Shown piece by piece: positions 7,960 to 58,110 of a stretch of DNA of 64,000 nucleotides (positions are counted from its first letter, which is position 1; each line of letters starts with the position of its first letter). This DNA comes from a virus. The position numbers were made by a program, and so were the translations under genes. The DNA is taken from positions 1 to 64,000 of the IMG/VR virus record IMGVR_UViG_3300037478_000449; one strand, given 5' to 3'. Below the pieces are notes generated by a model. The model was given only the letters and a program-made list of their open reading frames with translations. It did not search any database and was not told the origin of the DNA.

Positions 7960-8138
7960 CGCGCCGCCTTCCGTAGCCGGCCTGGTGCGGGTTCGGTGAC
8001 CAGCCGCTGCCGGCCCACGACCTGCGGCGGGTCCTGGACAAGCCCCGCACGTAGGGTGCGCAGCTCATCCAGGATCGCCGCCAGGTACTGGTCGGTAGAA
8101 CTCGACGGCTCAGGAAGCCGCCGCTGGCCGGAGTCCAC
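7956..8138 (-). CDS. Hypothetical protein
   Basis: Short coupled ORF after the capsid gene. Confidence 0.55.
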   Translation of the reverse strand: MDSGQRRLPEPSSSTDQYLAAILDELRTLRAGLVQDPPQVVGRQRLVTEPAPGRLRKAAR

Positions 8139-8143
8139 CAGGG

Positions 8144-9352
8144 TCAGCTCTCAGACGGCACGCCGGTCGAGGCCACCGCAGACTTCGGGTCCATCCGAGT
8201 CCCGCCCAGCGTGTGCCTCACCTTCCACTCCACGCTGTCGGTGTCGAAGTCGCCGTCCATCGGGTCCACCGCACCCCCACCCACACGGGTCGCGTTCGGG
8301 TGCTTCTGGAACAGCTCCGGGCTCTCGTGTCCGATGAGGAACCCGATCTCCGCCGCCGGCCGGCCCGCGTCCGGGGACGCGAACAGATACCATGCGGTCG
8401 AGCCGGTGGTGGTGTCGACGATCGGCAGCCACGGGTTGACGACCAGCTCCACCGCGTTGCGCATCCAGTTCGTCGCACGCACCTGGTCCGACCCCTGACC
8501 GGTCTGGTTCCCCGGGCCGGATCCGGCCGCGCCGATGATCTCGATCGCGTTGAGGATGTTCCGTGCCGTCACCGCCAGGGACGGCGGGACGACCAGGGTC
8601 GCCGCCTCGACGAAGATCGGCGCGCCGTCGGTGTCCAGCTGCTCACCGAACAGGGTGAACGCGGCCTGCAAGCCGGGAATCGACAGTGCCTCGTCGGTCA
8701 GGTTGGCGTTGCCGGCGGAGAAGTACGGCGACACCGGACCCGTTGCGGCCGCGTACAGGGCGGTGACGAAACGCTCCTCGGTGCGGCGGGCGGCGTTGCC
8801 CAGCCGGCGGGGAATGTCCGCGAACGCGTCCAGGTCGTCGTTGATCAGCGTCTCCCACGCCAGCGGCACCCGCCGGCCGTGCTTACGCACCGCGTACTCG
8901 AACTTGCCGTCGGCCAGCGGCGACGCCGGGTACTCCGACTGCTGCCCAACCTCGTCCAGGACCGCCTCGGAACCGTCCAGAGTGAACCGCTTGACGGTGC
9001 GGAAGTCCCTCACCCGGCCACGGCGTGCCAGCCGGGACCAGTTCACGGGCATCTGCTGGTAGGCGGCCAGCATCTGCCGGTCGATGATGTCGCCGAACAG
9101 CAGCTGGAAGTCGGAGGTGACCATCGCCTCCTGGAAGTTCAACGCGGCCCGCTTGGAGCCCTTGATGACCTGGGTGTACAGGTTGAGCGCTTCGATGAAC
9201 GCCCGCTGGTAGGCGAGGGACGGGCCGTTGCGACGTGCCCGGGCACGCCCGGACACGCTCACACCCTCCCCGCCGTACAGTGCCTGCTGGGACGCCTGCT
9301 CGGCGGTGTACGAGGCCACCTCCGGCAGGGCGTCAAGAACCGTGCTTCGCAT
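8144..9352 (-). CDS. Major capsid protein (Mu gpT-like/HK97 fold)
   Basis: TSDFQLLF, VRDFR, WETLINDDLDAF, LVVPPSL, DFDTDSVEWKVRH. Confidence 0.9.
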   Translation of the reverse strand: MRSTVLDALPEVASYTAEQASQQALYGGEGVSVSGRARARRNGPSLAYQRAFIEALNLYTQVIKGSKRAALNFQEAMVTSDFQLLFGDIIDRQMLAAYQQMPVNWSRLARRGRVRDFRTVKRFTLDGSEAVLDEVGQQSEYPASPLADGKFEYAVRKHGRRVPLAWETLINDDLDAFADIPRRLGNAARRTEERFVTALYAAATGPVSPYFSAGNANLTDEALSIPGLQAAFTLFGEQLDTDGAPIFVEAATLVVPPSLAVTARNILNAIEIIGAAGSGPGNQTGQGSDQVRATNWMRNAVELVVNPWLPIVDTTTGSTAWYLFASPDAGRPAAEIGFLIGHESPELFQKHPNATRVGGGAVDPMDGDFDTDSVEWKVRHTLGGTRMDPKSAVASTGVPSES

Positions 9353-44501: not shown

Positions 44502-44845
44502 GGGGGTCCTCCTCAGAACGGCAGGGCGGGCTGGGCGGGCTGGCCGGAGGCGACCAGGGCGAACGGGTCGACAGCGGCGTAGGCGGACTCGCGCGGCTGG
44601 TGCTGCCGCGCGCTGCGGCGGGAGTCGCGGCGCTGCTCAAACCGAGCCCGCCGCCGCTCCCGGTCCCGCCGGTCCCGGTCCGCTCCGGTGCTGGTGGTGG
44701 ACGTCTTCACGCTCACTACTGTAGCATCTGCTATAGGACTTGCATAGGGCAGTCCCCTAGTAGATACCCGAGTAGGTACCAAGTGACAGCCATTGCTATA
44801 GCAGGTGCACCCGAAAGTCCTAGTGCGGAGCGGTACGATCCGCTC

Positions 44846-45034
44846 ATGGCGACCAAGACCGAGCTGATGGGCATCGAGGCGGCGCGGCTCCCGCTCGGGA
44901 AGCGGTCCGCCCTCGCGAAGGAGGAGGGCGTGCACACCGTGCTGACCCGCTTCGGCCAGCCGGAGACCGCGCTCGTGCCGATGGAGTGGTACCGGCGAGC
45001 CCGGGAAGCCCTCGGCGAGCCCACGGACCTGTAG
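44846..45034 (+). CDS. Second Phd/YefM-like protein
   Basis: MGIEAARLPLG...HTVLTRFGQPETALVPMEWY. TACGAT 6 nt before ATG. Confidence 0.7.
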   Translation: MATKTELMGIEAARLPLGKRSALAKEEGVHTVLTRFGQPETALVPMEWYRRAREALGEPTDL

Positions 45035-45430
45035 ATGCAAGAGGACGCTACGCCCTGGGATGACCTTCGCCAGCGGTTCAGGAAGCCATGGGGCTGGTCC
45101 GGGGTCTACTGGCTGTTCGACCGCTCCGGCCGGCTGCTGTACATCGGCGCAGCCGAGAACCCGTACTACCGCTGGAAGCACCACGCCAAGCACAAGTCGT
45201 GGTGGCCAGACGTTGACCACTCTCGGACCGAGGTCGAATGGGTTCGAGGCTATCGAGAGGTTCGAGAGGTCGAGCGTGCAGCGATCAGGCGGGACAACCC
45301 GCTCTACAACGTCGCAGACGCACAGACGCGTATCCGACTCACCGAGGAGTTCCGCCTCCTCGTCAGGCAAGCTGGTGGCCAGGAAGCCGTCGAAGACCTG
45401 CTGCGGAGGCACCTCGACATTGCGGCGTAG
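45035..45430 (+). CDS. GIY-YIG nuclease
   Basis: GVYWLFD...LLYIG...R...E.AAI...PLYN. Confidence 0.85.
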   Translation: MQEDATPWDDLRQRFRKPWGWSGVYWLFDRSGRLLYIGAAENPYYRWKHHAKHKSWWPDVDHSRTEVEWVRGYREVREVERAAIRRDNPLYNVADAQTRIRLTEEFRLLVRQAGGQEAVEDLLRRHLDIAA

Positions 45431-45514: not shown

Positions 45515-46291
45515 CTATCCCACCCCCGCGAACAGGTCGAGGGCTGGTTGCCGGGGCCGGGTGGACACCATCTCCAGCAGCCGGTCCCGCCATGCCCGGG
45601 CGAAGGTGAGACAGTTCGCCTCGGTCTTGTGGCCCGGCCCGCAGCCGGGCACGTGCCGGCCGCGGAAGCTCCACGCCATCGAGTCGGCCGACCCCAGGTC
45701 GGCCGCATACGCGGCCAGCCCCTCGACCTTCACCCCGAACCCATGCAACCGCAGCCCCTGCCGGGCCAGGGTGGACACGATCAGCCCAATCTCCCCGGTT
45801 CCCTGCCGGCGGCACACCGACCCAAGCCCCACCACCGGCTCCCGGGTCAGGTCCACCCCAGCAGCGGCGAACAGGTCCACCGACCGCAGGTAGTCACCGA
45901 GCTGCCAGCCCTGTACCACAGGCACGAACGGCAGGTCAGGCGCGAGGTCCCGCAGCCGCAGGTACGACTCCACGGTCTGCGCCTGGTGTTCGACGACAGT
46001 CAGGCCGGTCTTGGCGACGATCCACGGCTCACACATGTGATCTTGCGGGCTGGCCCACTCCAGACGGCCGATCTCGTCCCGGTACCGCCGGACCGCAGCG
46101 GCGTACTGCTCTGGTGTGGTGCGCCATTCGCCGTAGGTCGACAACTCGGTGAAGCCGCCCGAGTCCAGCGCCCACGGCACACGCGCCCGCGGCAGCGACC
46201 GCCGACGGACGAGGCGCCGGTGTGACACGAACAGCGGGAAGTCCACCAGCTCCAGCCAGTGCGGCATGTGGGCTCCGAGCCAGAAGCGCAT
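45515..46291 (-). CDS. dpdA: DpdA/TGT-like deazaguanine transglycosylase
   Basis: LDSGGF, PQDHMCEP, PVVQG, GLGSVC, LHGFG, SADSMAW are TGT-fold motifs. TGATG overlap with VUT. Confidence 0.75.
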   Translation of the reverse strand: MRFWLGAHMPHWLELVDFPLFVSHRRLVRRRSLPRARVPWALDSGGFTELSTYGEWRTTPEQYAAAVRRYRDEIGRLEWASPQDHMCEPWIVAKTGLTVVEHQAQTVESYLRLRDLAPDLPFVPVVQGWQLGDYLRSVDLFAAAGVDLTREPVVGLGSVCRRQGTGEIGLIVSTLARQGLRLHGFGVKVEGLAAYAADLGSADSMAWSFRGRHVPGCGPGHKTEANCLTFARAWRDRLLEMVSTRPRQPALDLFAGVG

Positions 46292-46821
46292 CAGGTCACC
46301 GCCTGCCGGACCCGGCGCGGCCACCGGACCGCGGCCAGCAGCGCGACCGCGGCGAGGGTCATCCACGCCTTGCCGACGATCTGGCCGGGCAGGAACGCGA
46401 GCGAGCCGAACGCCAGCAGGAGGAAGATCACCGAATCGGCGACCAGCCCGACCGCGTTGGACGCCAGTACGGCGGCATACCAGCGGCGGCGGCGCAACGG
46501 TGAGTAGACGGCCATGTCCGCCAACTCGCTCGCCCCGAACGCCACGGCGGAGGCGACCACCAGGGCCGGTGGAGCCACCAGCGCCGAGCACCCTGCCCCG
46601 GCGGCGATCGCGGCGAGCACCACCCACCGGCCGCCGAACTCGTGCAGCACGTCCCGCAGGGTGAACGCGAGCCCGGCGAAGTAGACCCCGGCCGGGGCCA
46701 TCAGCCCGAACCCGACCGGTACCGCGCCGAACCGGACGATCGCCCAGTTGGCGGCGAACACTGTGCTGACGAAGCCGACCGCGGCCAGCAGTGCGGCGGT
46801 CCGGGTGGTTGGGGTGCTCAC
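46291..46821 (-). CDS. VUT/YhhQ family queuosine-precursor transporter
   Basis: Multi-TM. AANW...APAGVY..GLAFTLRD..HE, SELAD..VY, ASN.VG...DSVIF...AF, GQIVGK. Confidence 0.85.
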   Translation of the reverse strand: MSTPTTRTAALLAAVGFVSTVFAANWAIVRFGAVPVGFGLMAPAGVYFAGLAFTLRDVLHEFGGRWVVLAAIAAGAGCSALVAPPALVVASAVAFGASELADMAVYSPLRRRRWYAAVLASNAVGLVADSVIFLLLAFGSLAFLPGQIVGKAWMTLAAVALLAAVRWPRRVRQAVT

Positions 46822-47963
46822 CGACCCACCCCCGCGAACAGGTCCGGCTGGTCGAACTTGGCAACGGAATCGGCGGCCGGTTCCGGTACGGACTCGGCTG
46901 GCCAGGCGAAGTCCGGCAACGGGAACGCCGCCCCAGGCAGGTCCGCGAGTTGTGGGTGCAGCCGGTCATACTCAGCCTTGCCGATCTTGCCGATCAGCAG
47001 TGAGTCCCCCACTGCCACCCGTGGCACCAGGTGTCGGGGGATGCGGTCCAGCCGCAACGGCCCCCGGATCAGGCCGGCCTGGTGGGCGAGGTGGCCTAGG
47101 TACACGGTCGTCCGCAGCCGGGCCACGGCCGCGGTGAGCGGGTCCAGCTCTACCCCATCCACACCGCCAGCGATGCGCCGCAGCGCCTCAGCCGGCGGCA
47201 ACACCGGGCCACCGGTCGCGGACTTGCCGCCGCGGACCTGCCGCGGCGGCATCTCCCCGGTGGTGTACCACTGCCACAGGTAGTCGGCGGCGCGGATCAG
47301 GAAGTGGCCGGTGCCGGCGGTCGGGTCGCACAGGGTCAGCGGCTCGCCAGTGAACTCATTGGCCGCTGGCACGAGGGTCCGGTCCAGGATGAAGTCGCAC
47401 ACCCACCACGGGGTCTGCACCAGCGCGTTGCCGCTGCGCCGGCCATCGGACAGTGCCTGCAACAGGTCCCCGACCAGCCAGCCGGTGATGGACCCTGGTC
47501 CCTTGTCCACGTCGTAGGCCAGCGGCGGCGCGTCACCGGCCCACCAGTCCGCCAGTGCCTGCACCGCCGCATCCGACGGGGTGCCGTCTCGCAGGTTGCT
47601 GTACCTCGGGTGCAGCAGCCACTGGGTGGCCGGATGCACACACAGCCCGCCGAATGCCTGCGCCAGCCGCACTACCGGGGTCGGCTGGTCGGTGAACCGG
47701 CCGGGCATTCCGTGTAGCCCCTTGCGCAGCCACACGTCCACCAGCCCGTGATCCTCGGCCCACGCCACAACCGTGGACAGGTAGACCCAGGTCGCGGCGA
47801 CCTGCCGTCGCCGGTCGCGAGCCTCCGCGCGAGTCCCCGCTGCTGCCTCAACGCGCATCGAGTCGGCCAGCACGTCAACGTGGCAGTGCAGGGCGCGGAT
47901 CAGCGGCTTGGTGAACCGGGTGTCGTCTACCGGGTTACCGGCTCGGGTAGCAGCGGTAGCCAC
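46818..47963 (-). CDS. Truncated PglX-like (BREX-2) adenine methyltransferase homologue
   Basis: GDLLQALS, ALVQTPWWVCDFILDRTL, DPTAGTGHFL, GVELDP..AAVARLR, GDSL. No NPPY motif before the stop. Confidence 0.7.
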   Translation of the reverse strand: MATAATRAGNPVDDTRFTKPLIRALHCHVDVLADSMRVEAAAGTRAEARDRRRQVAATWVYLSTVVAWAEDHGLVDVWLRKGLHGMPGRFTDQPTPVVRLAQAFGGLCVHPATQWLLHPRYSNLRDGTPSDAAVQALADWWAGDAPPLAYDVDKGPGSITGWLVGDLLQALSDGRRSGNALVQTPWWVCDFILDRTLVPAANEFTGEPLTLCDPTAGTGHFLIRAADYLWQWYTTGEMPPRQVRGGKSATGGPVLPPAEALRRIAGGVDGVELDPLTAAVARLRTTVYLGHLAHQAGLIRGPLRLDRIPRHLVPRVAVGDSLLIGKIGKAEYDRLHPQLADLPGAAFPLPDFAWPAESVPEPAADSVAKFDQPDLFAGVGR

Positions 47964-47985
47964 CTATCCCACCCCCCGGTCCGGG

Positions 47986-52578: not shown

Positions 52579-53256
52579 CTAGGCGGCCGCCTCAAGCTCG
52601 CCGAACCGGCCGGTCAGCAGCGCCTGGACTTCCCGCAGCGCGGTAACGGTCGCCTCGTCAGTCCAGTCGCACACGTCACCTTCGATCGCCTGAATGATCT
52701 GCTCGGCGTGGAAACGCACTGACCAGCCCGAGGAACGGCGGTTGGCGCGTTCCTGCCGTTCGGTCAGCCGCTGGCCGGCGAGGTGCCGCAGCGGGCGCTT
52801 GATCGGCAGCGGCTTCCCGTCGTGGTCGTAGGCGGTCTTCGCGGCCTTTAGCTTCCCGAGCACGTCCACGTCGACCGCGAGCGCGCCTGCGATCCGGTCC
52901 ACGTCCAAGCCAAGCTCGGTGCCGATCTGCACGCAGCGGGACCGGTCGAACGGGTTCAGCTTCACGCCATGGCGGGCGTTGCGCCGCATGGCGTCCTCGA
53001 ACAGTTCCGCGTCCGACTCGTAGTCGACCAGCTCCACGGCGATGACCGCCTCGGTGTCACGCCGCAGGTACGCCGCAACCCGGTGGAAGCCGTCCACCAC
53101 CCGAAGCGTGGACCGCTCAGCCACCACCGGCGGGGGTTCCTCCCCGGCGTCTAGCGAGTTGGCGATCCCCCTGACGTTCACGTCGTCCAGGTGGTGCCTG
53201 GGGTACAGCTTGTAGTCCAGAACCAGCTTGGCCGCTGGGATCTGCTTCGTTCTCAC
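52579..53256 (-). CDS. ParB/Srx N-terminal-domain protein
   Basis: YPR...PPVV...VVDGFHRVAA...NARHG..L. Confidence 0.85.
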   Translation of the reverse strand: MRTKQIPAAKLVLDYKLYPRHHLDDVNVRGIANSLDAGEEPPPVVAERSTLRVVDGFHRVAAYLRRDTEAVIAVELVDYESDAELFEDAMRRNARHGVKLNPFDRSRCVQIGTELGLDVDRIAGALAVDVDVLGKLKAAKTAYDHDGKPLPIKRPLRHLAGQRLTERQERANRRSSGWSVRFHAEQIIQAIEGDVCDWTDEATVTALREVQALLTGRFGELEAAA

Positions 53257-53350
53257 GTGCTCACGCCTTCCACTTGTAGGTGTCCTTGCCCTGCCACACC
53301 CCGCCGTGCGACGCCGTGGGTCGCCCGGCCAAGCCCCGCCATGTCTTGCG

Positions 53351-53393
53351 TGGGCGCCGAGGGCTCGAACCTCGGGTGCCTGCCGGTCGCCCA
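53351..53393 (-). ncRNA. tRNA-like mini-structure 3
   Basis: TGGGCG...CCGAGG-TTCGAGC-CCTCGG-CGCCCA: acceptor-like stem plus T-arm, no anticodon arm. Confidence 0.7.
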
Positions 53394-53475
53394 AACCCTT
53401 GCGCTGCCCCGCGTTGCCCGGCCGGGCCTCGCCATGCCCAGCAGCGCCTCGCATCGCCGCGACGTGCCGCGAACG

Positions 53476-53518
53476 TGAGCGCCGCAGGAGTCGAACCTGC
53501 GATACGACCGTCCGCCCG
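53476..53518 (-). ncRNA. tRNA-like mini-structure 2
   Basis: GGGCG-GACGGTCGTAT-CGCAGG-TTCGACT-CCTGCG-G-CGCTC. Confidence 0.7.
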
Positions 53519-53605
53519 GTTTGCCCTCGCCTTGCCACGCCGTGCCAGGCCCTGCGCAGCCGAGCCGAGCCTCGCCCCGCACAGCCCTGCCGCGCCTGGG
53601 TTCGG

Positions 53606-53649
53606 CGAGCGCCAGGGGAGTCGAACCCCCGGTTACGACCATCCGCTCA
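53606..53649 (-). ncRNA. tRNA-like mini-structure 1
   Basis: TGAGCG-GATGGTCGTAA-CCGGGGG-TTCGACT-CCCCTGG-CGCTCG. Confidence 0.7.
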
Positions 53650-53759
53650 ACCATCGGCCTACTCCTCGCCTCGCCAAACCCCGCCCAGCCATGCCGCACC
53701 TGGCGTCGCCGCACCGGGCTAGGCCGGGCCGCGCCGGGCCAAGACTCGTTTGGTGTGCC

Positions 53760-54296
53760 TCATGGCAGGACCTTGAACCGTCCGAAGGGGCCAGACTTCT
53801 CCGGTCGGTAATCACCGACACCAACGGTCCGGCCGCCGATCTCCAGCAGCTCCCGAACCTGCTTCTCCGGTATGAAGTCCGTGTCCACCTCAAACCTCAC
53901 CGTCGCCGCCCACTCGGGCACCTTCGCCCGGCTCCGGGTCACCCCGTTTCGCTGGACGACCGCCCGCCGGGTGTCGATCTCGTATTCCTTGACCGGCTCA
54001 CCGTTGAGGATCAGCAGCGTCTGCTCATCGGCTGCGAACACCGCACCCTTGATGACCGACGTAGCAGCCGTCTTGCCGATCCGCCGGCCCTTCGCCGCCG
54101 ACACCAGGCAGCCACGGAACGCCTCCGACGGCAGGAACAGCTGCCCCGTAGCGCTGCGGTACACCGACCGCTCAGCCTCAACCTCGGCCGTTGGGATGTT
54201 CTTCCTCCCGAGCTTGTCCGACGGTGCCTGCATCCCAGCCGGGTTGTTCATCAGGACCGGCTTGATGCTCTGAATCTCGATCTCGATCAGTTCCAC
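53760..54296 (-). CDS. Stand-alone Cas7/RAMP-like protein
   Basis: N-terminal beta strand + PVLM, LFLPSEAFRGCL (cf. RAMP IPGSSxKG), C-terminal Gly-rich loop GVGDYRPEKSGPFGRFKV. Strong RBS. Confidence 0.7.
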   Translation of the reverse strand: MELIEIEIQSIKPVLMNNPAGMQAPSDKLGRKNIPTAEVEAERSVYRSATGQLFLPSEAFRGCLVSAAKGRRIGKTAATSVIKGAVFAADEQTLLILNGEPVKEYEIDTRRAVVQRNGVTRSRAKVPEWAATVRFEVDTDFIPEKQVRELLEIGGRTVGVGDYRPEKSGPFGRFKVLP

Positions 54297-54729
54297 CTAG
54301 ATCCCCTCCTCCGTTGCCTTGCCCCCGCACGTCGTCTCCGTCGGCCAGCACCCACCGGCGCACAGCCGCCCCTCAGTCACAGCCACCGCCGCCGGGCTGG
54401 TCGGGAACTCGACCAGCCCCGCCCCGCACACCGCCCGCACCGGCCAGCCGGGTACCCGCTGGTGAGCGGTAGCCCCCCACCCGGTGTGATCTGTCCACAC
54501 CGGAGCCCTCTCCGGCAGGTCCGACAGGTGCCGCACCGGAGGCGCCGGATGCAGGCGTCGCAGCTCCGCCGCGGTCACGTCCGCCACCACCGCAGCGCCG
54601 CAAGCCGGGCCAAAGCCCGCCGCCGATGCGCCGGTGAATGGGCCAGCAGCCGGGAAGTGGCCACCAGCCGGGCGTGGATGACCGCATCCCGCCGGGCCTG
54701 CGCCTCAGGAGACAACCGCCGCCGGCCGG

Positions 54730-57228
54730 TCACCGGGACACCTCGCCCAGGTCGAACAGGGTCGGCATCGACAGATTGGCCTCGGTCGCCTGGAGATACT
54801 TCACGCCATCCAGGAAGTAGCCCGGATTCAGCTCCACGGCTCGACCCTGCCGACCAAGCCGCAGCGCACGAACTGGCACCGTGAACAGCCCACCGAACGG
54901 GTCGAAGACCATCTCGCCCTCGTTGCTGTACCGGCGGATCAGCCGGTCAACGATGTCGAACTGCAACGGGCAGACGTGAAGCGCCTGTGCCCGGCGGGAC
55001 TGCTCGGTGTTTAGGGTCAGCATCCGGTTCACGTCGTGCCACACGTCCGGGTGGTGCGACCCGGGAGCGAGCGCCATGAACGTCGCCGGCAGCGCCCCCC
55101 GGCCTTCTAGCGCCTCGCCGATGCGGACGTGCGCCTCGTAGTCGTACACCTGCCGCAGGGTCTGCTCGGTGAACAGCCGGGACATCTGATCTGGCGGCAA
55201 CGCGGCCAGCTCGTCCGGGGTCAGGTACCGCTCGCCCGAGGAGCGCCAGAACGCATGCGCGTCTACCTGCCACCGGGAGCGGGTGTAGTCGTCCTTGGAC
55301 TTGGCAACCGGCACGTCTGCGTAGCCGCGGGTCCGGTCAGTCTGCGGCTTGTGGAACAGCAGGACGTACTCCGGGGAGCCGGCTCCCATCTTCGTCGCGT
55401 CCTTGCACTGCTCCGACCAGCCGAGCCGGTACGTCTGGTTGTTCTCCCGCACCACGTCCGTGACGACGGTGATCATGCCGAGGTAGTCGAAGCCGTGCCG
55501 GATGCCGTGGGCGATCGCCTCGGCGTGGAAGGGGGAGACGGTAGGGACTCCGGCGCCGGTGACGTTGCCGAACAGGATGCGGTCCTTGACGTGGCAGCAG
55601 TAGATGCGCCCGGGCCGTAGCACTCTCAGCAGCTCCGGCGTCAGGAAGTCCATCTGCGCCCAGAAGTGGCCGTTGTCGTCGGTGTGGCCGAAGTCCTCGT
55701 ACTGCGGGGTGTACTCGTAGTGGTTGGCGAACGGGATCGACGTGACGATCAGGTCGACCGACTCAGGCGCCATCGCCTTGGTTTCCAGTACGCAATCGTT
55801 GTTGGCGACCAGCCAACCCTTTCCGGCGGCCTCGATCCGGTCGACGCCGATCGAGCGGGTCAACGCCTGCGTGATGCCCTGCTGGTCAAGGCCGAACTCG
55901 CGAATGACCTCGGTCATGGTGCCGGTCAGCTCCTCGTGCTGTGCCCACTTGCGCCGCAGCGTGCGGACGACTTCGCGCTCCGATTCGGCGTGGATGATGT
56001 CGATGCGCACCCGCTTTGTTTGCAGGAAGCGGTGGATGCGGTGGACCGCCTGAATGAAGTCGTTGAACGAGAACGTGATCCCGACGAAGACCGCCCGGTG
56101 GCAGTGCCGCTGAAAGTTGCACCCGGAGCCGGACAGTTCCGGCTTCGTGGCTAGTAGCCGAAACCGCCCGTCGGAGAAGTCGATGATCCGCTGCTCCCGG
56201 ATGTCCAGGTCCAGCGACCCGTACACCTCCACAGCCTCCGGCAGCGCCCGCTTGATCGCCCGACGCTCATCCTCCAGGTCGTGCCACAGGATGAAGTGGT
56301 CACCCGGGGATGCGGCTACGATCTCAGCCGCCATCGCCACCCGCGCGTCCAGCGTGGACCGTTTCTCCCGAGCCGCGTCGGTCACACCCAGCGCGGCGCC
56401 CCGGAACAAGTGCCCCTGTCCGTCGCGGTCAACCGGTGCGTCTGAGTGGTCCACCGGAATCTCGTGATACATGACCTCGATGTCCGGCAGGTCGTATCCG
56501 GTGTCGTCGTATCCGAGGTCGCTCGGCTTCTGGAGGAACACGGCCCACGTGTTGAGCCACAGCCAGAACTCCCGCTGCTTGTGCGGGTAGAGCGTGAGGT
56601 GGTTGGCCTTGGTGGAGTCCCGCTGGAAGAACCGGGTCAGCGCCTGACCGGTGTCCATGATCCCGAGATAGCCGGCGTAGTGGATCAGCTCTTTATGCCG
56701 GTTCGGGCTTGGCGTGGCGGTGGCCAGGAACCGGTACTTAACCTCGTCGAACAGGGTCAGAAACGTCTGGTACGTCTTGGACCCGAACGAACGTAGCACC
56801 GACGCCTCGTCCAGGCTCACCGCGTCGAACAGGTTGGGGTCTAGCCGGCCGTCCCGCACCGACTCGTAGTTGGTCAGGTACAGACCCGGCCCGTCGACCT
56901 CAGCGGTCCAGCGGACGAACGACACGCCCATGTCGACCAGCGGGGCGTCCCTGGCGAACTCCTGCCGTACGCCGAGCGGGCAGACGATCAGCGCACGCCC
57001 GCCAGTCCTTGCAAGGATCAGCCGCATGATCTCCAGCTGTATGACGCTCTTGCCGAGCCCGAACGCGGCGAAGACAGCACGCCGGCCGCCGCGCACGGCC
57101 CAGCGCACGATCGCCCGCTGGTGCAGCATCAAGGCCGGGTGAACGTCAGCCTCGTTGACCTCGAATCCGTACGTCTGGCTGAAGTCGACCTTGGCGGCCA
57201 GGAAATCGGTGTAGCTGTTCGCGCTCAC
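54730..57228 (-). CDS. SNF2-like helicase fused to a beta-class N4/N6 DNA methyltransferase
   Basis: FGLGKS, LDEAS, ATATPSPN, QAVHRIHRF; then DLIVTSIPF and VFDPFGG. Confidence 0.9.
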   Translation of the reverse strand: MSANSYTDFLAAKVDFSQTYGFEVNEADVHPALMLHQRAIVRWAVRGGRRAVFAAFGLGKSVIQLEIMRLILARTGGRALIVCPLGVRQEFARDAPLVDMGVSFVRWTAEVDGPGLYLTNYESVRDGRLDPNLFDAVSLDEASVLRSFGSKTYQTFLTLFDEVKYRFLATATPSPNRHKELIHYAGYLGIMDTGQALTRFFQRDSTKANHLTLYPHKQREFWLWLNTWAVFLQKPSDLGYDDTGYDLPDIEVMYHEIPVDHSDAPVDRDGQGHLFRGAALGVTDAAREKRSTLDARVAMAAEIVAASPGDHFILWHDLEDERRAIKRALPEAVEVYGSLDLDIREQRIIDFSDGRFRLLATKPELSGSGCNFQRHCHRAVFVGITFSFNDFIQAVHRIHRFLQTKRVRIDIIHAESEREVVRTLRRKWAQHEELTGTMTEVIREFGLDQQGITQALTRSIGVDRIEAAGKGWLVANNDCVLETKAMAPESVDLIVTSIPFANHYEYTPQYEDFGHTDDNGHFWAQMDFLTPELLRVLRPGRIYCCHVKDRILFGNVTGAGVPTVSPFHAEAIAHGIRHGFDYLGMITVVTDVVRENNQTYRLGWSEQCKDATKMGAGSPEYVLLFHKPQTDRTRGYADVPVAKSKDDYTRSRWQVDAHAFWRSSGERYLTPDELAALPPDQMSRLFTEQTLRQVYDYEAHVRIGEALEGRGALPATFMALAPGSHHPDVWHDVNRMLTLNTEQSRRAQALHVCPLQFDIVDRLIRRYSNEGEMVFDPFGGLFTVPVRALRLGRQGRAVELNPGYFLDGVKYLQATEANLSMPTLFDLGEVSR

Positions 57229-58110
57229 CGGGGCACCCCGCCCGGGTCTGTCCCGCCGGGTTCCCGGCCCAGCAGCCGGTCCAGCCACACCACGTCGTCC
57301 ACGGCCTCCACCGCCAGCGGCTCGCCGAGCACGTCGACCAGGTGGGCGGCGGCCCGCTTGCCGGATGCCTCATCCGGGTAGGCCAGGTAGTGCCGCACCG
57401 GCCCAGCAGCGGGCAGGGTGTGCACGTCCCAAACGAGGCTCACCGGACCCGCCCCCTCTGCCGCCGACGCAGCTCCTGCTCCCAGTCGTAGGTGGTGTTC
57501 CGGTCGGCCAGCCGTGCCGCGTCGATGGCCTGCCGCAGCCGGGTGTCCTGGTCGCGGCGCCGCTGCCGGGCGGCCCGGCGGGGGTGGGGCAGGTGCAGCC
57601 TCACCGGACCCGCCTCCTGCCGTGGTAGATGGCCACACCGGTTACCAGCGCCCCGGCTGGGATCACCGCGGCGGTGGGGGAGTCCGGGCCTGGGGTGGTG
57701 GCCACGTGGACCAGCCGGGTGAGCCGGTCCGGTGTGCAGCAGCCCGGGTCACCGGCCGGTGCCAGACACACCCGGCACGGCGGGCTGGGCTGCCGGCACG
57801 GGCTGCAGGTGTCGGCGGTGGTCCACTCTCCGCAGGTGCACAGCCGCACCCTGGTCGCCGTCGCCGCGGTCACGACCCGGCTCCGATCCCGGCGACCAGG
57901 CGCCGCAGCTTCCCCCGCGCCTTGCCCCGGTGCTCCACGACATAGACCAGGTGACCGGAGCCGGCCAACTTGACCTCCCACCGCTTGTCGGCGACGCGGC
58001 GGCGGGCGAACGCCACACACCGGCCGGTCTCCCAGTGACGGACGTAGATCGCCCGGTCCCACTCCACCCACCGGTACTCAGCGGCGGGCTCGGTCCCGGC
58101 CCGGTCCAGC

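What the first reader, a model, noticed from the sequence alone, without database searches (positions are those of the whole stretch)
46818..47963. Phage-encoded truncated PglX (BREX-2) homologue lacking the catalytic motif: possible anti-BREX decoy
Seen: QVAATWV...WAEDHGLV, GDLLQALS, ALVQTPWWVCDFILDRTL, DPTAGTGHFL and GDSL in order, then a clean stop ~60 aa later. There is no NPPY motif or target-recognition domain, and the gene is coupled (GTGA) to the next one. Knowledge (recalled): these motifs match the N-terminal part of actinomycete PglX, which is normally >1000 aa. Inference: a dominant-negative mimic of the Pgl/BREX complex, a SAM sponge, or a repurposed methyltransferase working with DpdA.
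Basis: partly seen in the sequence, partly recalled or inferred. Interest (0 to 1): 0.75.

Follow-up and report, generated by a model that had tools for sequence, protein, structure and literature searches.

The report
Clamp-tethered half-PglX phage protein
A temperate actinomycete phage carries a conserved 381-residue copy of only the front third of the BREX-2/Pgl defence methyltransferase PglX, which cannot methylate DNA but ends in a peptide that looks like a sliding-clamp anchor; it is a plausible, untested inhibitor of that defence.

Summary
Window 46818-47963 (-) encodes a 381-aa protein with every quoted motif, no NPPY, no recognition domain, and a GTGA overlap with the next gene. The record is a complete 100-kb IMG/VR virus. 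Its nearest known family is BREX-2 PglX: homology covers the N-terminal helical bundle and methyltransferase motifs X, I, II and III, and stops at GDSLL.

It is not a unique or decaying truncation. At least 205 homologues of about 340-390 aa occur in actinomycete prophages, viral contigs and integrative-element-like islands. SAM-binding residues are invariant, dN/dS is 0.21-0.28, and the AlphaFold model is confident. The family has no Pfam or PHROG entry.

New here:
- 49 of 120 homologues end in a QLDLF-type beta-clamp-binding motif (0.6 expected). The window's tail, QPDLFAGVG, is repeated in the co-transcribed DpdA through an identical 20-nt stretch.
- Longer relatives form a graded series towards a full catalytic core.
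- The tail tracks phage context, not element context.
- Linkage to DpdA/YhhQ is not conserved.

The decoy idea remains plausible but unproven (about 0.4). SAM sponge and DpdA partner are unlikely. This scan noted the same family before on other genomes.

The parts
46818..47963 (-). Gene for the 381-aa half-PglX protein (P0001)
   Evidence: ORF and translation. NCBIfam BREX_2_MTaseX E 1.8e-32. AF2 model pLDDT 88.8, pTM 0.88.
47484..47936 (-). N-terminal helical bundle (about res 10-160), homologous to the PglX/HsdM N-terminal bundle
   Evidence: Helices 15-35, 45-71, 96-106 and 131-142 in the model. VIA alignment to PglX 8q56/8c45: Z 12.2-12.6, about 311 residues, model 10-380 against PglX 1-590. 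The PglX profile match starts at res 41.
46995..47477 (-). SAM-binding half of a gamma-class N6-adenine methyltransferase fold (res 163-323), with motifs X (QTP 183-185), I (DPTAGTG 213-219), II (VELD 271-274) and III (GDSL 319-322); only strands b1-b3 are present
   Evidence: 37% identity to a real BREX-2 PglX over 163-323. Invariant D213, G217, T218, G219, D274 and D320 in 43 homologues. Three strands only in the model.
46917..46994 (-). Family-specific conserved segment (res 324-349, EYxxLHPxLADLPGAxF) that takes the place of motif IV (NPPY)
   Evidence: Y332, H336, P337 and L339 are invariant or nearly so. Relatives with 42-49% identity carry NPPY here instead.
46821..46916 (-). Disordered C-terminal tail (res 350-381)
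   Evidence: pLDDT 46-71 in this stretch. Length and sequence vary among homologues.
46836..46850 (-). QPDLF (res 372-376), a beta-sliding-clamp-binding-like motif (consensus QL[SD]LF, from general knowledge)
   Evidence: 49 of 120 homologues carry the motif in their last 30 residues, against 0.6 expected from shuffles (maximum 4); 28 are exact QLDLF; only 1 has it in the body. Complex model with S. coelicolor DnaN: weak support, 0.60 against best control 0.15.
46825..46844 (-). 20-nt stretch GACCTGTTCGCGGGGGTGGG encoding DLFAGVG; first copy
   Evidence: Two exact copies in the window, 0.04 expected.
45519..45538 (-). Second copy of the same 20-nt stretch, at the 3' end of dpdA
46291..46821 (-). 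YhhQ/Vut_1-like queuosine-precursor transporter gene, translationally coupled (GTGA) to the half-PglX gene
   Evidence: Pfam Vut_1 E 9.4e-10, TIGR00697 E 2.7e-8. Overlap read.
45515..46291 (-). DpdA (DNA 7-deazaguanine transglycosylase) gene, coupled (TGATG) to the transporter gene; the protein ends QPALDLFAGVG
   Evidence: Pfam PF23859 E 6e-86. Start read; tail.

Best explanation
P0001 is a non-catalytic derivative of the BREX-2/Pgl methyltransferase PglX that is carried by mobile elements. It keeps the N-terminal helical bundle and the SAM-binding half of the fold (motifs X, I, II, III). It lacks the adenine-binding motif IV, the rest of the catalytic core and the DNA-recognition domain, so it can neither methylate nor read DNA (shown by sequence and model). 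A disordered tail ends in a clamp-binding-type peptide. This peptide should dock the protein on the host beta clamp and so concentrate it on replicating phage DNA (inferred; supported by motif enrichment and a weak complex model). There the PglX-like surface most likely competes with host PglX for its partners (PglZ, PglY or PglW) or otherwise blocks assembly of a Pgl/BREX-2 complex on phage DNA. That would make it a dominant-negative decoy (inferred, untested). In this phage it is co-translated with a preQ0/preQ1 transporter and DpdA, forming a three-gene counter-defence operon.
For: Homology and truncation point:
- NCBIfam and PADLOC PglX are the best hits, covering profile positions about 45-327 only.
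- In a search of 1.84 billion representatives, the next hits after the family's own clusters (some short hits lie among them) are mostly 1150-1320-aa proteins matched at their residues about 50-325.
- A real PglX has NPPY 48 residues beyond the shared GDSLL.

A real, selected family:
- At least 205 homologues of 340-390 aa at 50-78% identity.
- 34 invariant columns, including all SAM-contacting motifs.
- dN/dS 0.21-0.28 at dS 0.16-0.45.
- AF2 pLDDT 88.8, with a conserved segment in place of motif IV.

Mobile-element restriction:
- Prophage replication modules with YqaJ, RusA, WhiB, DnaB and a phage DnaN.
- Islands with DUF4192, DprA-like, ComM-like, M23 peptidase and integrase genes.
- IMG/VR contigs.

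Clamp tail:
- 49 of 120 tails carry the motif against 0.6 expected.
- By my reading of the tails against the neighbourhoods, the tail is present in at least 11 of 14 phage-context loci and in 0 of 11 element-context loci.
- Complex prediction gave weak support: score 0.60, best control 0.15. That mark was reached by 58 of 80 solved complexes and 2 of 110 mismatched pairs. At 0.60 or under it was reached by only 7 of those 80 and by both mismatches. Runs share at least 36% of contacts; partner pLDDT is at least 42. Clamp-peptide complexes are solved, so the pass may come from memory, and the clamp used was a stand-in from S. coelicolor.

Decoy logic:
- The BrxX/PglX N-terminal bundle has no known function and has been proposed as the interface to other BREX components (PMC12839542).
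- BREX defence needs SAM-bound BrxX (abstracts listed).
- Carriers of the family more often hold a real PglX: 8 of 14 against 62 of 287, p 0.005.

Neighbourhood:
- DpdA, YhhQ, a ParB-like gene, and an 852-aa protein with a DNA methylase domain that matches a PHROG annotated as DNA helicase.
Against: No experiment or model here shows binding to any Pgl/BREX protein.

The co-occurrence with host PglX weakens in genomes at least 95% complete: 5-6 of 11 against 89 of 390, p 0.14 or 0.025. It is not corrected for phylogeny or genome size.

Real PglX has no clamp motif, so it is unclear why a decoy should sit on the clamp.

The element-borne half of the family lacks the tail.

The window's motif is QPDLF, not canonical QLDLF, and the complex result is only weak.

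The phage's host is unknown, so whether it meets BREX-2 is unknown.

Strict conservation of the SAM pocket is not required by a simple decoy.
Confidence: 0.4

Rival explanations
1. A replication-fork accessory unrelated to BREX. The protein is a clamp-tethered, SAM-binding adaptor or sensor. It might couple phage replication to late transcription, or regulate a phage or host DNA-modifying enzyme. Its PglX ancestry would then be only historical.
For: Clamp-type tail. Placement inside replication modules, next to a phage-encoded DnaN in L082, L083 and L085. The invariant SAM pocket suggests ligand sensing. Phages are known to use the clamp for late transcription (Mu MuC preprint listed; T4 gp45 from general knowledge). 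Longer relatives with a complete catalytic core but no recognition domain also carry the tail. This suggests an ancestral clamp-guided methylase rather than a decoy.
Against: The tail-less half of the family sits in non-phage elements, so the shared core function cannot depend on the clamp. No DNA-binding or transcription domain is detectable.
Confidence: 0.3
2. A partner of DpdA in 7-deazaguanine DNA modification, for example a targeting or scaffolding subunit, as DpdB is for bacterial DpdA. It would be brought to the same clamp by the shared tail.
For: Translational coupling of P0001, YhhQ and DpdA. Identical 20-nt 3' ends encode DLFAGVG in both proteins. 25 of 120 actinobacterial DpdA homologues carry a strict QLDLF-type tail, and others end in looser forms such as QQLTLG.
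Against: DpdA/YhhQ lie within 8 kb in only one other distinct locus (L019 = L089) of about 33. DpdA is present in 2 of 10 other viral records that carry the family. Some 400 mycobacteriophages have this DpdA type, yet no phage record in the collection holds a P0001 homologue.
Confidence: 0.1
3. One half of a split methyltransferase that becomes active by pairing with a separately encoded catalytic and recognition half.
For: The SAM-binding motifs are intact.
Against: The downstream and upstream genes differ between loci, and no neighbour with NPPY recurs. The window's only other methylase is an N6_N4 (PF01555) enzyme with its own complete domain. A conserved family-specific segment replaces motif IV.
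Confidence: 0.05
4. A SAM sponge that lowers free SAM to disable SAM-dependent defences, or a decaying gene remnant with no function.
For: The SAM pocket is conserved. SAM depletion is a known anti-BREX route (T3 SAMase preprint listed).
Against: Stoichiometric sequestration by a 381-aa protein is implausible (inference). It would explain neither the conserved N-terminal bundle nor the clamp tail. A remnant is excluded by dN/dS 0.21-0.28, at least 205 homologues and a confident fold.
Confidence: 0.05

Closest known systems
PglX (BrxX) of BREX type 2 / Pgl (NCBIfam NF033451; PADLOC PDLC02529; type-1 structures 8C45, 8Q56, 9EWZ)
   Same: N-terminal helical bundle plus motifs X, I, II and III of the gamma-class N6-adenine methyltransferase. 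37% identity over res 163-323. Profile match to positions 45-322. VIA Z 12.2-12.6 over about 311 residues.
   Different: 381 aa against about 1,200. It has no motif IV (NPPY), no motifs V-VIII, no recognition domain, no helical spacer and no C-terminal region. It scores 112 bits against the 400-bit family cut-off. It is carried by phages and other mobile elements, not in a pglWXYZ locus. It has a clamp-binding-like tail that the real PglX examined lacks.
Known anti-BREX proteins: T7 Ocr (DNA mimic that binds BrxX), T3 SAM lyase, ICP1 OrbA (the last recalled from memory)
   Same: If the decoy reading is right, they share the purpose: a phage protein that disables BREX. Ocr and the SAM lyase both act through the BrxX/SAM node (papers listed).
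   Different: No sequence or fold relation. Those act by DNA mimicry, SAM cleavage or BrxC binding. This one would act by mimicking part of the defence's own subunit. None is known for BREX-2/Pgl in the papers I searched.
Clamp-binding-motif proteins (QL[SD]LF clients of DnaN; the eukaryotic DNMT1-PCNA link; phage Mu MuC and T4 gp33/gp55 on the clamp)
   Same: A short C-terminal peptide after a disordered linker that matches the bacterial consensus. The modelled complex with DnaN gave weak support.
   Different: Binding has not been measured. The globular cargo, a half methyltransferase, has no precedent among clamp clients that I know of (memory).
TRD-less PglX-like methylases of Streptomyces linear plasmids and viral contigs ('group B', about 445 aa), and NPPY-retaining short relatives ('group A-prime', about 390 aa)
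   Same: The same N-terminal bundle and motifs I-III, at 30% and 42-49% identity. Some end in the same QxxLF tail.
   Different: Group B keeps the whole catalytic core (NPPY and the motif VI-VIII region). Group A-prime keeps NPPY and stops about 45 residues later. The window's family stops before NPPY.

Membership tests
BREX-2 PglX (NF033451 equivalog) | Whole-protein score at or above the curated cut-off of 400 bits over a profile of about 1185 positions | tested here: not met
   112.1 bits, covering profile positions 45-322 only.
BREX-2 PglX (NF033451 equivalog) | Catalytic motif IV (NPPY) and a complete gamma-class methyltransferase core | tested here: not met
   No [ND]PP[YFW] in the protein. 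The model has strands b1-b3 only. A real PglX has NPPY 48 residues after GDSLL.
BREX-2 PglX (NF033451 equivalog) | Target-recognition domain and C-terminal region | tested here: not met
   The protein ends at residue 381, and the last 32 residues are disordered.
BREX-2 PglX (NF033451 equivalog) | Encoded in a pglW/X/Y/Z (BREX-2) locus | tested here: not met
   The virus record's only match to the PglX profile is this gene. No neighbour scanned against PADLOC matched a BREX-2 component; other neighbours are YhhQ-like, DpdA, HNH and ParB-like genes.
BREX-2 PglX (NF033451 equivalog) | N-terminal helical bundle and SAM-binding motifs X, I, II, III homologous to PglX | tested here: met
Beta-clamp (DnaN) client proteins | An accessible peptide matching QL[SD]LF or a close variant | tested here: met
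   QPDLF at residues 372-376 in a disordered tail. 49 of 120 homologues have the motif against 0.6 expected.
Beta-clamp (DnaN) client proteins | Physical binding to the hydrophobic cleft of DnaN | tested here: inconclusive
   Weak support only: 0.60 against best control 0.15. The clamp was a stand-in and the pass may come from memory of solved complexes.
Anti-BREX / anti-Pgl proteins (functional class) | Relief of BREX/Pgl restriction, or block of PglX methylation, on expression | not testable with these tools
   Needs phage plating and methylome assays.
Anti-BREX / anti-Pgl proteins (functional class) | Carried by mobile elements of hosts that have the defence | tested here: inconclusive
   The family is found only in mobile-element contexts. 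Host PglX occurs in 8 of 14 carriers against 62 of 287 others (p 0.005). In genomes at least 95% complete it is 5-6 of 11 against 89 of 390 (p 0.14 or 0.025).
Dpd / phage 7-deazaguanine modification module | Conserved co-occurrence with DpdA | tested here: not met
   Adjacent in the window and in L019/L089 only. DpdA is present in 2 of 10 other viral records.

The most novel reading that the evidence does not exclude
Actinomycete phages and integrative elements carry a family of counter-defence proteins made from the defence's own methyltransferase. The family keeps PglX's partner-binding bundle and SAM-bound half-fold, has lost catalysis and DNA reading, and in phages has gained a sliding-clamp anchor. 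It would poison Pgl/BREX-2 at the replication fork. This would be the first anti-BREX-2/Pgl protein. With the clamp-type tails on actinophage DpdA, it would also be evidence that phage DNA-modification and counter-defence factors ride the host clamp.
Probability: 0.3. Interest if true: 0.85.

Novelty: new variant of a known kind. Interest (0 to 1): 0.6.

Why it matters
How BREX and Pgl stop phages is still unknown, and no inhibitor of the type-2 (Pgl) system was found in the papers I searched. A natural, conserved fragment of PglX that keeps only the N-terminal bundle and the SAM half would mark which part of PglX talks to the rest of the system. It would give a ready tool to dissect that contact. 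The clamp-type tail, shared with DpdA in the same operon and common on actinobacterial DpdA, points to replication-coupled delivery of phage DNA-modification and counter-defence proteins, which has not been described. There is also a practical point: defence-finder tools will call this gene PglX (PADLOC E 9e-31), so prophage copies can be mistaken for defence genes.

Tried and rejected
- Frameshifted full-length PglX. I first suspected that the overlapping 484-aa and 333-aa minus-strand ORFs were the missing C-terminal parts. Pfam shows the 484-aa frame holds DpdA in its last 260 residues, and the true genes are YhhQ-like and DpdA.
- Homologues in cultured phages. Neither megablast of the region nor tblastn of P0001 found anything among 50,697 phage records.
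- Homologues on plasmids. Only the 30%-identity TRD-less methylases of Streptomyces linear plasmids and true PglX appeared, not the short family.
- Pfam and PHROGs give no family for P0001.
- A sequence search of PDB matches only motifs X and I of LlaGI, CamA and PglX, at E 0.006-0.04.
- A conserved neighbour that could supply the missing catalytic half: none recurs.
- A phage-encoded DnaN in this record: none, so the complex test used S. coelicolor DnaN as a stand-in.
Genomic contexts therefore come from the search for related loci and the genome search only.
- The literature searches found no description of truncated phage PglX, an anti-Pgl protein or clamp-tethered DpdA.
- The tally includes one unpublished genome (G203). 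It counts as a non-carrier without a PglX over the cut-off, and no other claim rests on it.
Full report
**1. What is there**

Window 46818-47963 (-) is a GTG-started ORF of 381 codons. The stop comes 59 residues after GDSL, and no NPPY-like motif occurs anywhere in the protein. The stop overlaps the start of the next gene as GTGA.

That next gene is a YhhQ/Vut_1-like queuosine-precursor transporter. It in turn overlaps (TGATG) a DpdA gene at 45515-46291. The three genes form one translationally coupled unit.

The window belongs to a 100,218-bp IMG/VR virus record rated 100% complete. Almost all genes lie on the minus strand. They include capsid, Mu-F-like, primase-helicase, RecT, PD-(D/E)XK, HNH, a large methylase and a serine integrase. 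'Phage-encoded' is therefore right.

**2. Relation to PglX**

- NCBIfam's BREX-2 PglX model is the best hit: E 1.8e-32, covering profile positions 45-322 of 1185 only, at 112 bits against a 400-bit cut-off.
- PADLOC agrees: PglX E 9e-31, positions 57-327.
- A real 1174-aa BREX-2 PglX from a Plantactinospora genome aligns at 37% identity over residues 163-323. The alignment ends exactly at GDSLL. In that enzyme NPPY follows 48 residues later.
- In a profile search of 1.84 billion representatives, the hits that follow the family's own clusters (some short hits lie among them) are mostly 1150-1320-aa proteins matched at their residues about 50-325.
- The AlphaFold model is confident (pLDDT 88.8, pTM 0.88). 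It shows a helical N-domain, only three Rossmann strands, a short conserved segment, and a disordered tail from about residue 350.
- Structural neighbours are gamma-class N6-adenine methylases with N-terminal helical domains. They include PglX/BrxX (Z 12.2-12.6, about 311 aligned residues), MmeI, DrdV and HsdM.

The protein is therefore the N-terminal bundle plus the SAM-binding half (motifs X, I, II, III) of a PglX-like enzyme. It cannot be a member of the PglX equivalog family.

**3. Not a one-off**

- At least 205 homologues of about 340-390 aa at 50-78% identity exist, from Micromonospora, Streptosporangium, Glycomyces, Streptomyces and metagenomes.
- 34 columns are invariant, including D213, G217, T218, G219, D274 and D320.
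- Close pairs give dN/dS 0.21-0.28 at dS 0.16-0.45.
- The family has no Pfam or PHROG entry, and no relative among 50,697 deposited phage genomes.

**4. Where the family lives**

Loci from genomes and IMG/VR fall into two settings.

- Prophage replication modules, with YqaJ, RusA, WhiB, DnaB, DUF5131, and in L082, L083 and L085 a phage-encoded DnaN upstream of the gene in the same module.
- A non-phage island in Micromonosporaceae, with DUF4192, DprA-like, ComM-like, M23 peptidase, prepilin peptidase, a large tyrosine integrase and an amidoligase. I read this as an integrative, probably conjugative, element. That reading is not verified.

DpdA and YhhQ accompany the gene only in the window and in one Streptomyces qinglanensis prophage (L019 = L089). 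DpdA occurs in 2 of 10 other viral records that carry the family. The link to 7-deazaguanine modification is therefore local, not a property of the family.

**5. The tail**

- 49 of 120 homologues carry Q[LP..][DS..][LF][FL] within their last 30 residues, and 28 are exact QLDLF. Shuffled tails give 0.6 on average (maximum 4). Only one protein has the motif elsewhere.
- This matches the bacterial beta-clamp-binding consensus QL[SD]LF (general knowledge). The window protein ends FDQPDLFAGVGR.
- Reading the tails against the neighbourhoods, the tail is present in at least 11 of 14 phage-context loci and in none of 11 element-context loci. The latter end in ...PGAAFPLxDFxWP... instead.
- A complex model of residues 335-381 with S. 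coelicolor DnaN gave weak support: 0.60 against a best control of 0.15. By the tool's calibration, such a weak pass is more often wrong than right unless the guess was likely beforehand. Clamp-peptide complexes are solved, and the clamp was a stand-in.
- The DpdA of the same operon ends QPALDLFAGVG. The two genes share an identical 20-nt 3' stretch, GACCTGTTCGCGGGGGTGGG: two copies, 0.04 expected. No other high-GC3 ORF of the window ends this way; dpdA was excluded by that scan's filter, and its matching tail was read directly.
- Of 120 actinobacterial DpdA homologues, 25 carry a strict QLDLF-type tail and others end in looser forms (QQLTLG, QLSLP). The L019 DpdA has QLSLL. Mycobacteriophage KiSi DpdA ends ELTLFDVA.

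**6. A graded series**

- Relatives at 42-49% identity (L021, L022, L090, L091) keep NPPY and stop about 45 residues later, again with QLDLF.
- Relatives at about 30% identity are about 445 aa. They occur in Streptomyces, often as tandem pairs on linear plasmids, and in some viral contigs. They keep the whole catalytic core but have no recognition domain. Some end in QxxLF.
- I do not infer a direction of evolution without a rooted tree. The series does show what is always kept: the bundle, the SAM half and, in phages, the tail.

**7. Function**

Shown: the protein cannot methylate or recognise DNA, it is under selection, and it is specific to mobile elements.

Inferred: it binds SAM, and in phages it binds the clamp.

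The decoy idea fits several points.

- The family is restricted to the phylum where BREX-2 occurs.
- The retained bundle has been proposed as the interface to other BREX components (PMC12839542).
- BREX defence depends on SAM-bound BrxX (abstracts listed).
- The window's neighbours are DNA-modification and likely counter-defence genes.

A co-occurrence test in one actinomycete family gave host PglX in 8 of 14 carriers against 62 of 287 non-carriers (p 0.005). Restricted to genomes at least 95% complete, it is 5-6 of 11 against 89 of 390 (p 0.14 or 0.025). The test is uncorrected for phylogeny, so I count it as suggestive only.

Three points argue against the decoy idea. Real PglX has no clamp motif. 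Nothing here shows binding to a Pgl protein. The host of this phage is unknown.

I give the decoy mechanism about 0.4, a BREX-independent fork-accessory role about 0.3, a DpdA partner about 0.1, and split enzyme, SAM sponge or remnant about 0.1 together.

**8. Novelty**

No paper found describes this family, an anti-Pgl protein or clamp-tethered DpdA. Earlier notes of this scan reached the same 'clamp-tethered half-PglX' reading on other genomes. I had reached it independently.

New in this report:
- the tail shared with DpdA, including the identical 20-nt stretch;
- the QLDLF-type tails found on a sizeable share of actinobacterial DpdA homologues;
- the split between phage and element contexts in whether the tail is present;
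- the graded series of longer relatives;
- the co-occurrence numbers.

I class the protein as a new variant of a known kind.

Noticed in passing
window 45515-46291 (-), and proteins P0122-P0241: Actinobacterial and actinophage DpdA proteins often end in a clamp-binding-type peptide. 25 of 120 carry a strict QLDLF-type motif, and others end in looser forms such as QQLTLG or QLSLP. This suggests that 7-deazaguanine insertion is coupled to the replication clamp. I found no paper describing it.
   Followed up: partly
window 44600-45430 (+): Two plus-strand ORFs are inserted between dpdA and the next minus-strand gene. One is a GIY-YIG-type endonuclease (45035-45430; PHROG 'endonuclease', E 7e-14). 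The other is an upstream ORF of unknown function. This looks like a homing-endonuclease or moron insertion.
   Followed up: partly
window 52579-57288 (-): A ParB-like gene (52579-53538) lies near an 852-aa protein (54730-57288) that matches phrog_16 (annotated DNA helicase) and ends in an N6_N4 DNA methylase domain. It may be a further DNA-modification or counter-restriction gene of the phage.
   Followed up: no
L034:1-16753 and the syntenic loci L027, L031, L036, L039, L044, L047, L054 and others; plasmid hits H31-H38: A conserved Streptomyces island, often on giant linear plasmids, carries two tandem TRD-less PglX-like methylases (about 453 and 436 aa). They are flanked by an ADP-ribosylglycohydrolase-phosphatase, a GNAT, another N6 methylase and a DUF4007 protein. 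Its function is unknown. A variant island (L051, L053) holds one such methylase and a DpdA about 7 kb downstream.
   Followed up: partly
L082:3211-4503, L083:5943-7082, L085:6269-7540: Phage-encoded DnaN (all three beta-clamp domains) lies upstream of the half-PglX gene in the same replication module, in three viral contigs.
   Followed up: partly
L021, L022, L090, L091 (match at about 8001-9180): Short relatives (about 390 aa) keep NPPY but end about 45 residues later with a QLDLF tail. They are a second kind of truncated PglX-like protein, whose catalytic status is unclear.
   Followed up: partly
window 47964-47980 and 45515-45530 (-): The same G-rich junction GGGGGTGGGATAG precedes the start of the half-PglX gene and ends dpdA, directly before the next ATG. 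The AGVG tail residues are therefore encoded by what also looks like a ribosome-binding and coupling signal.
   Followed up: no
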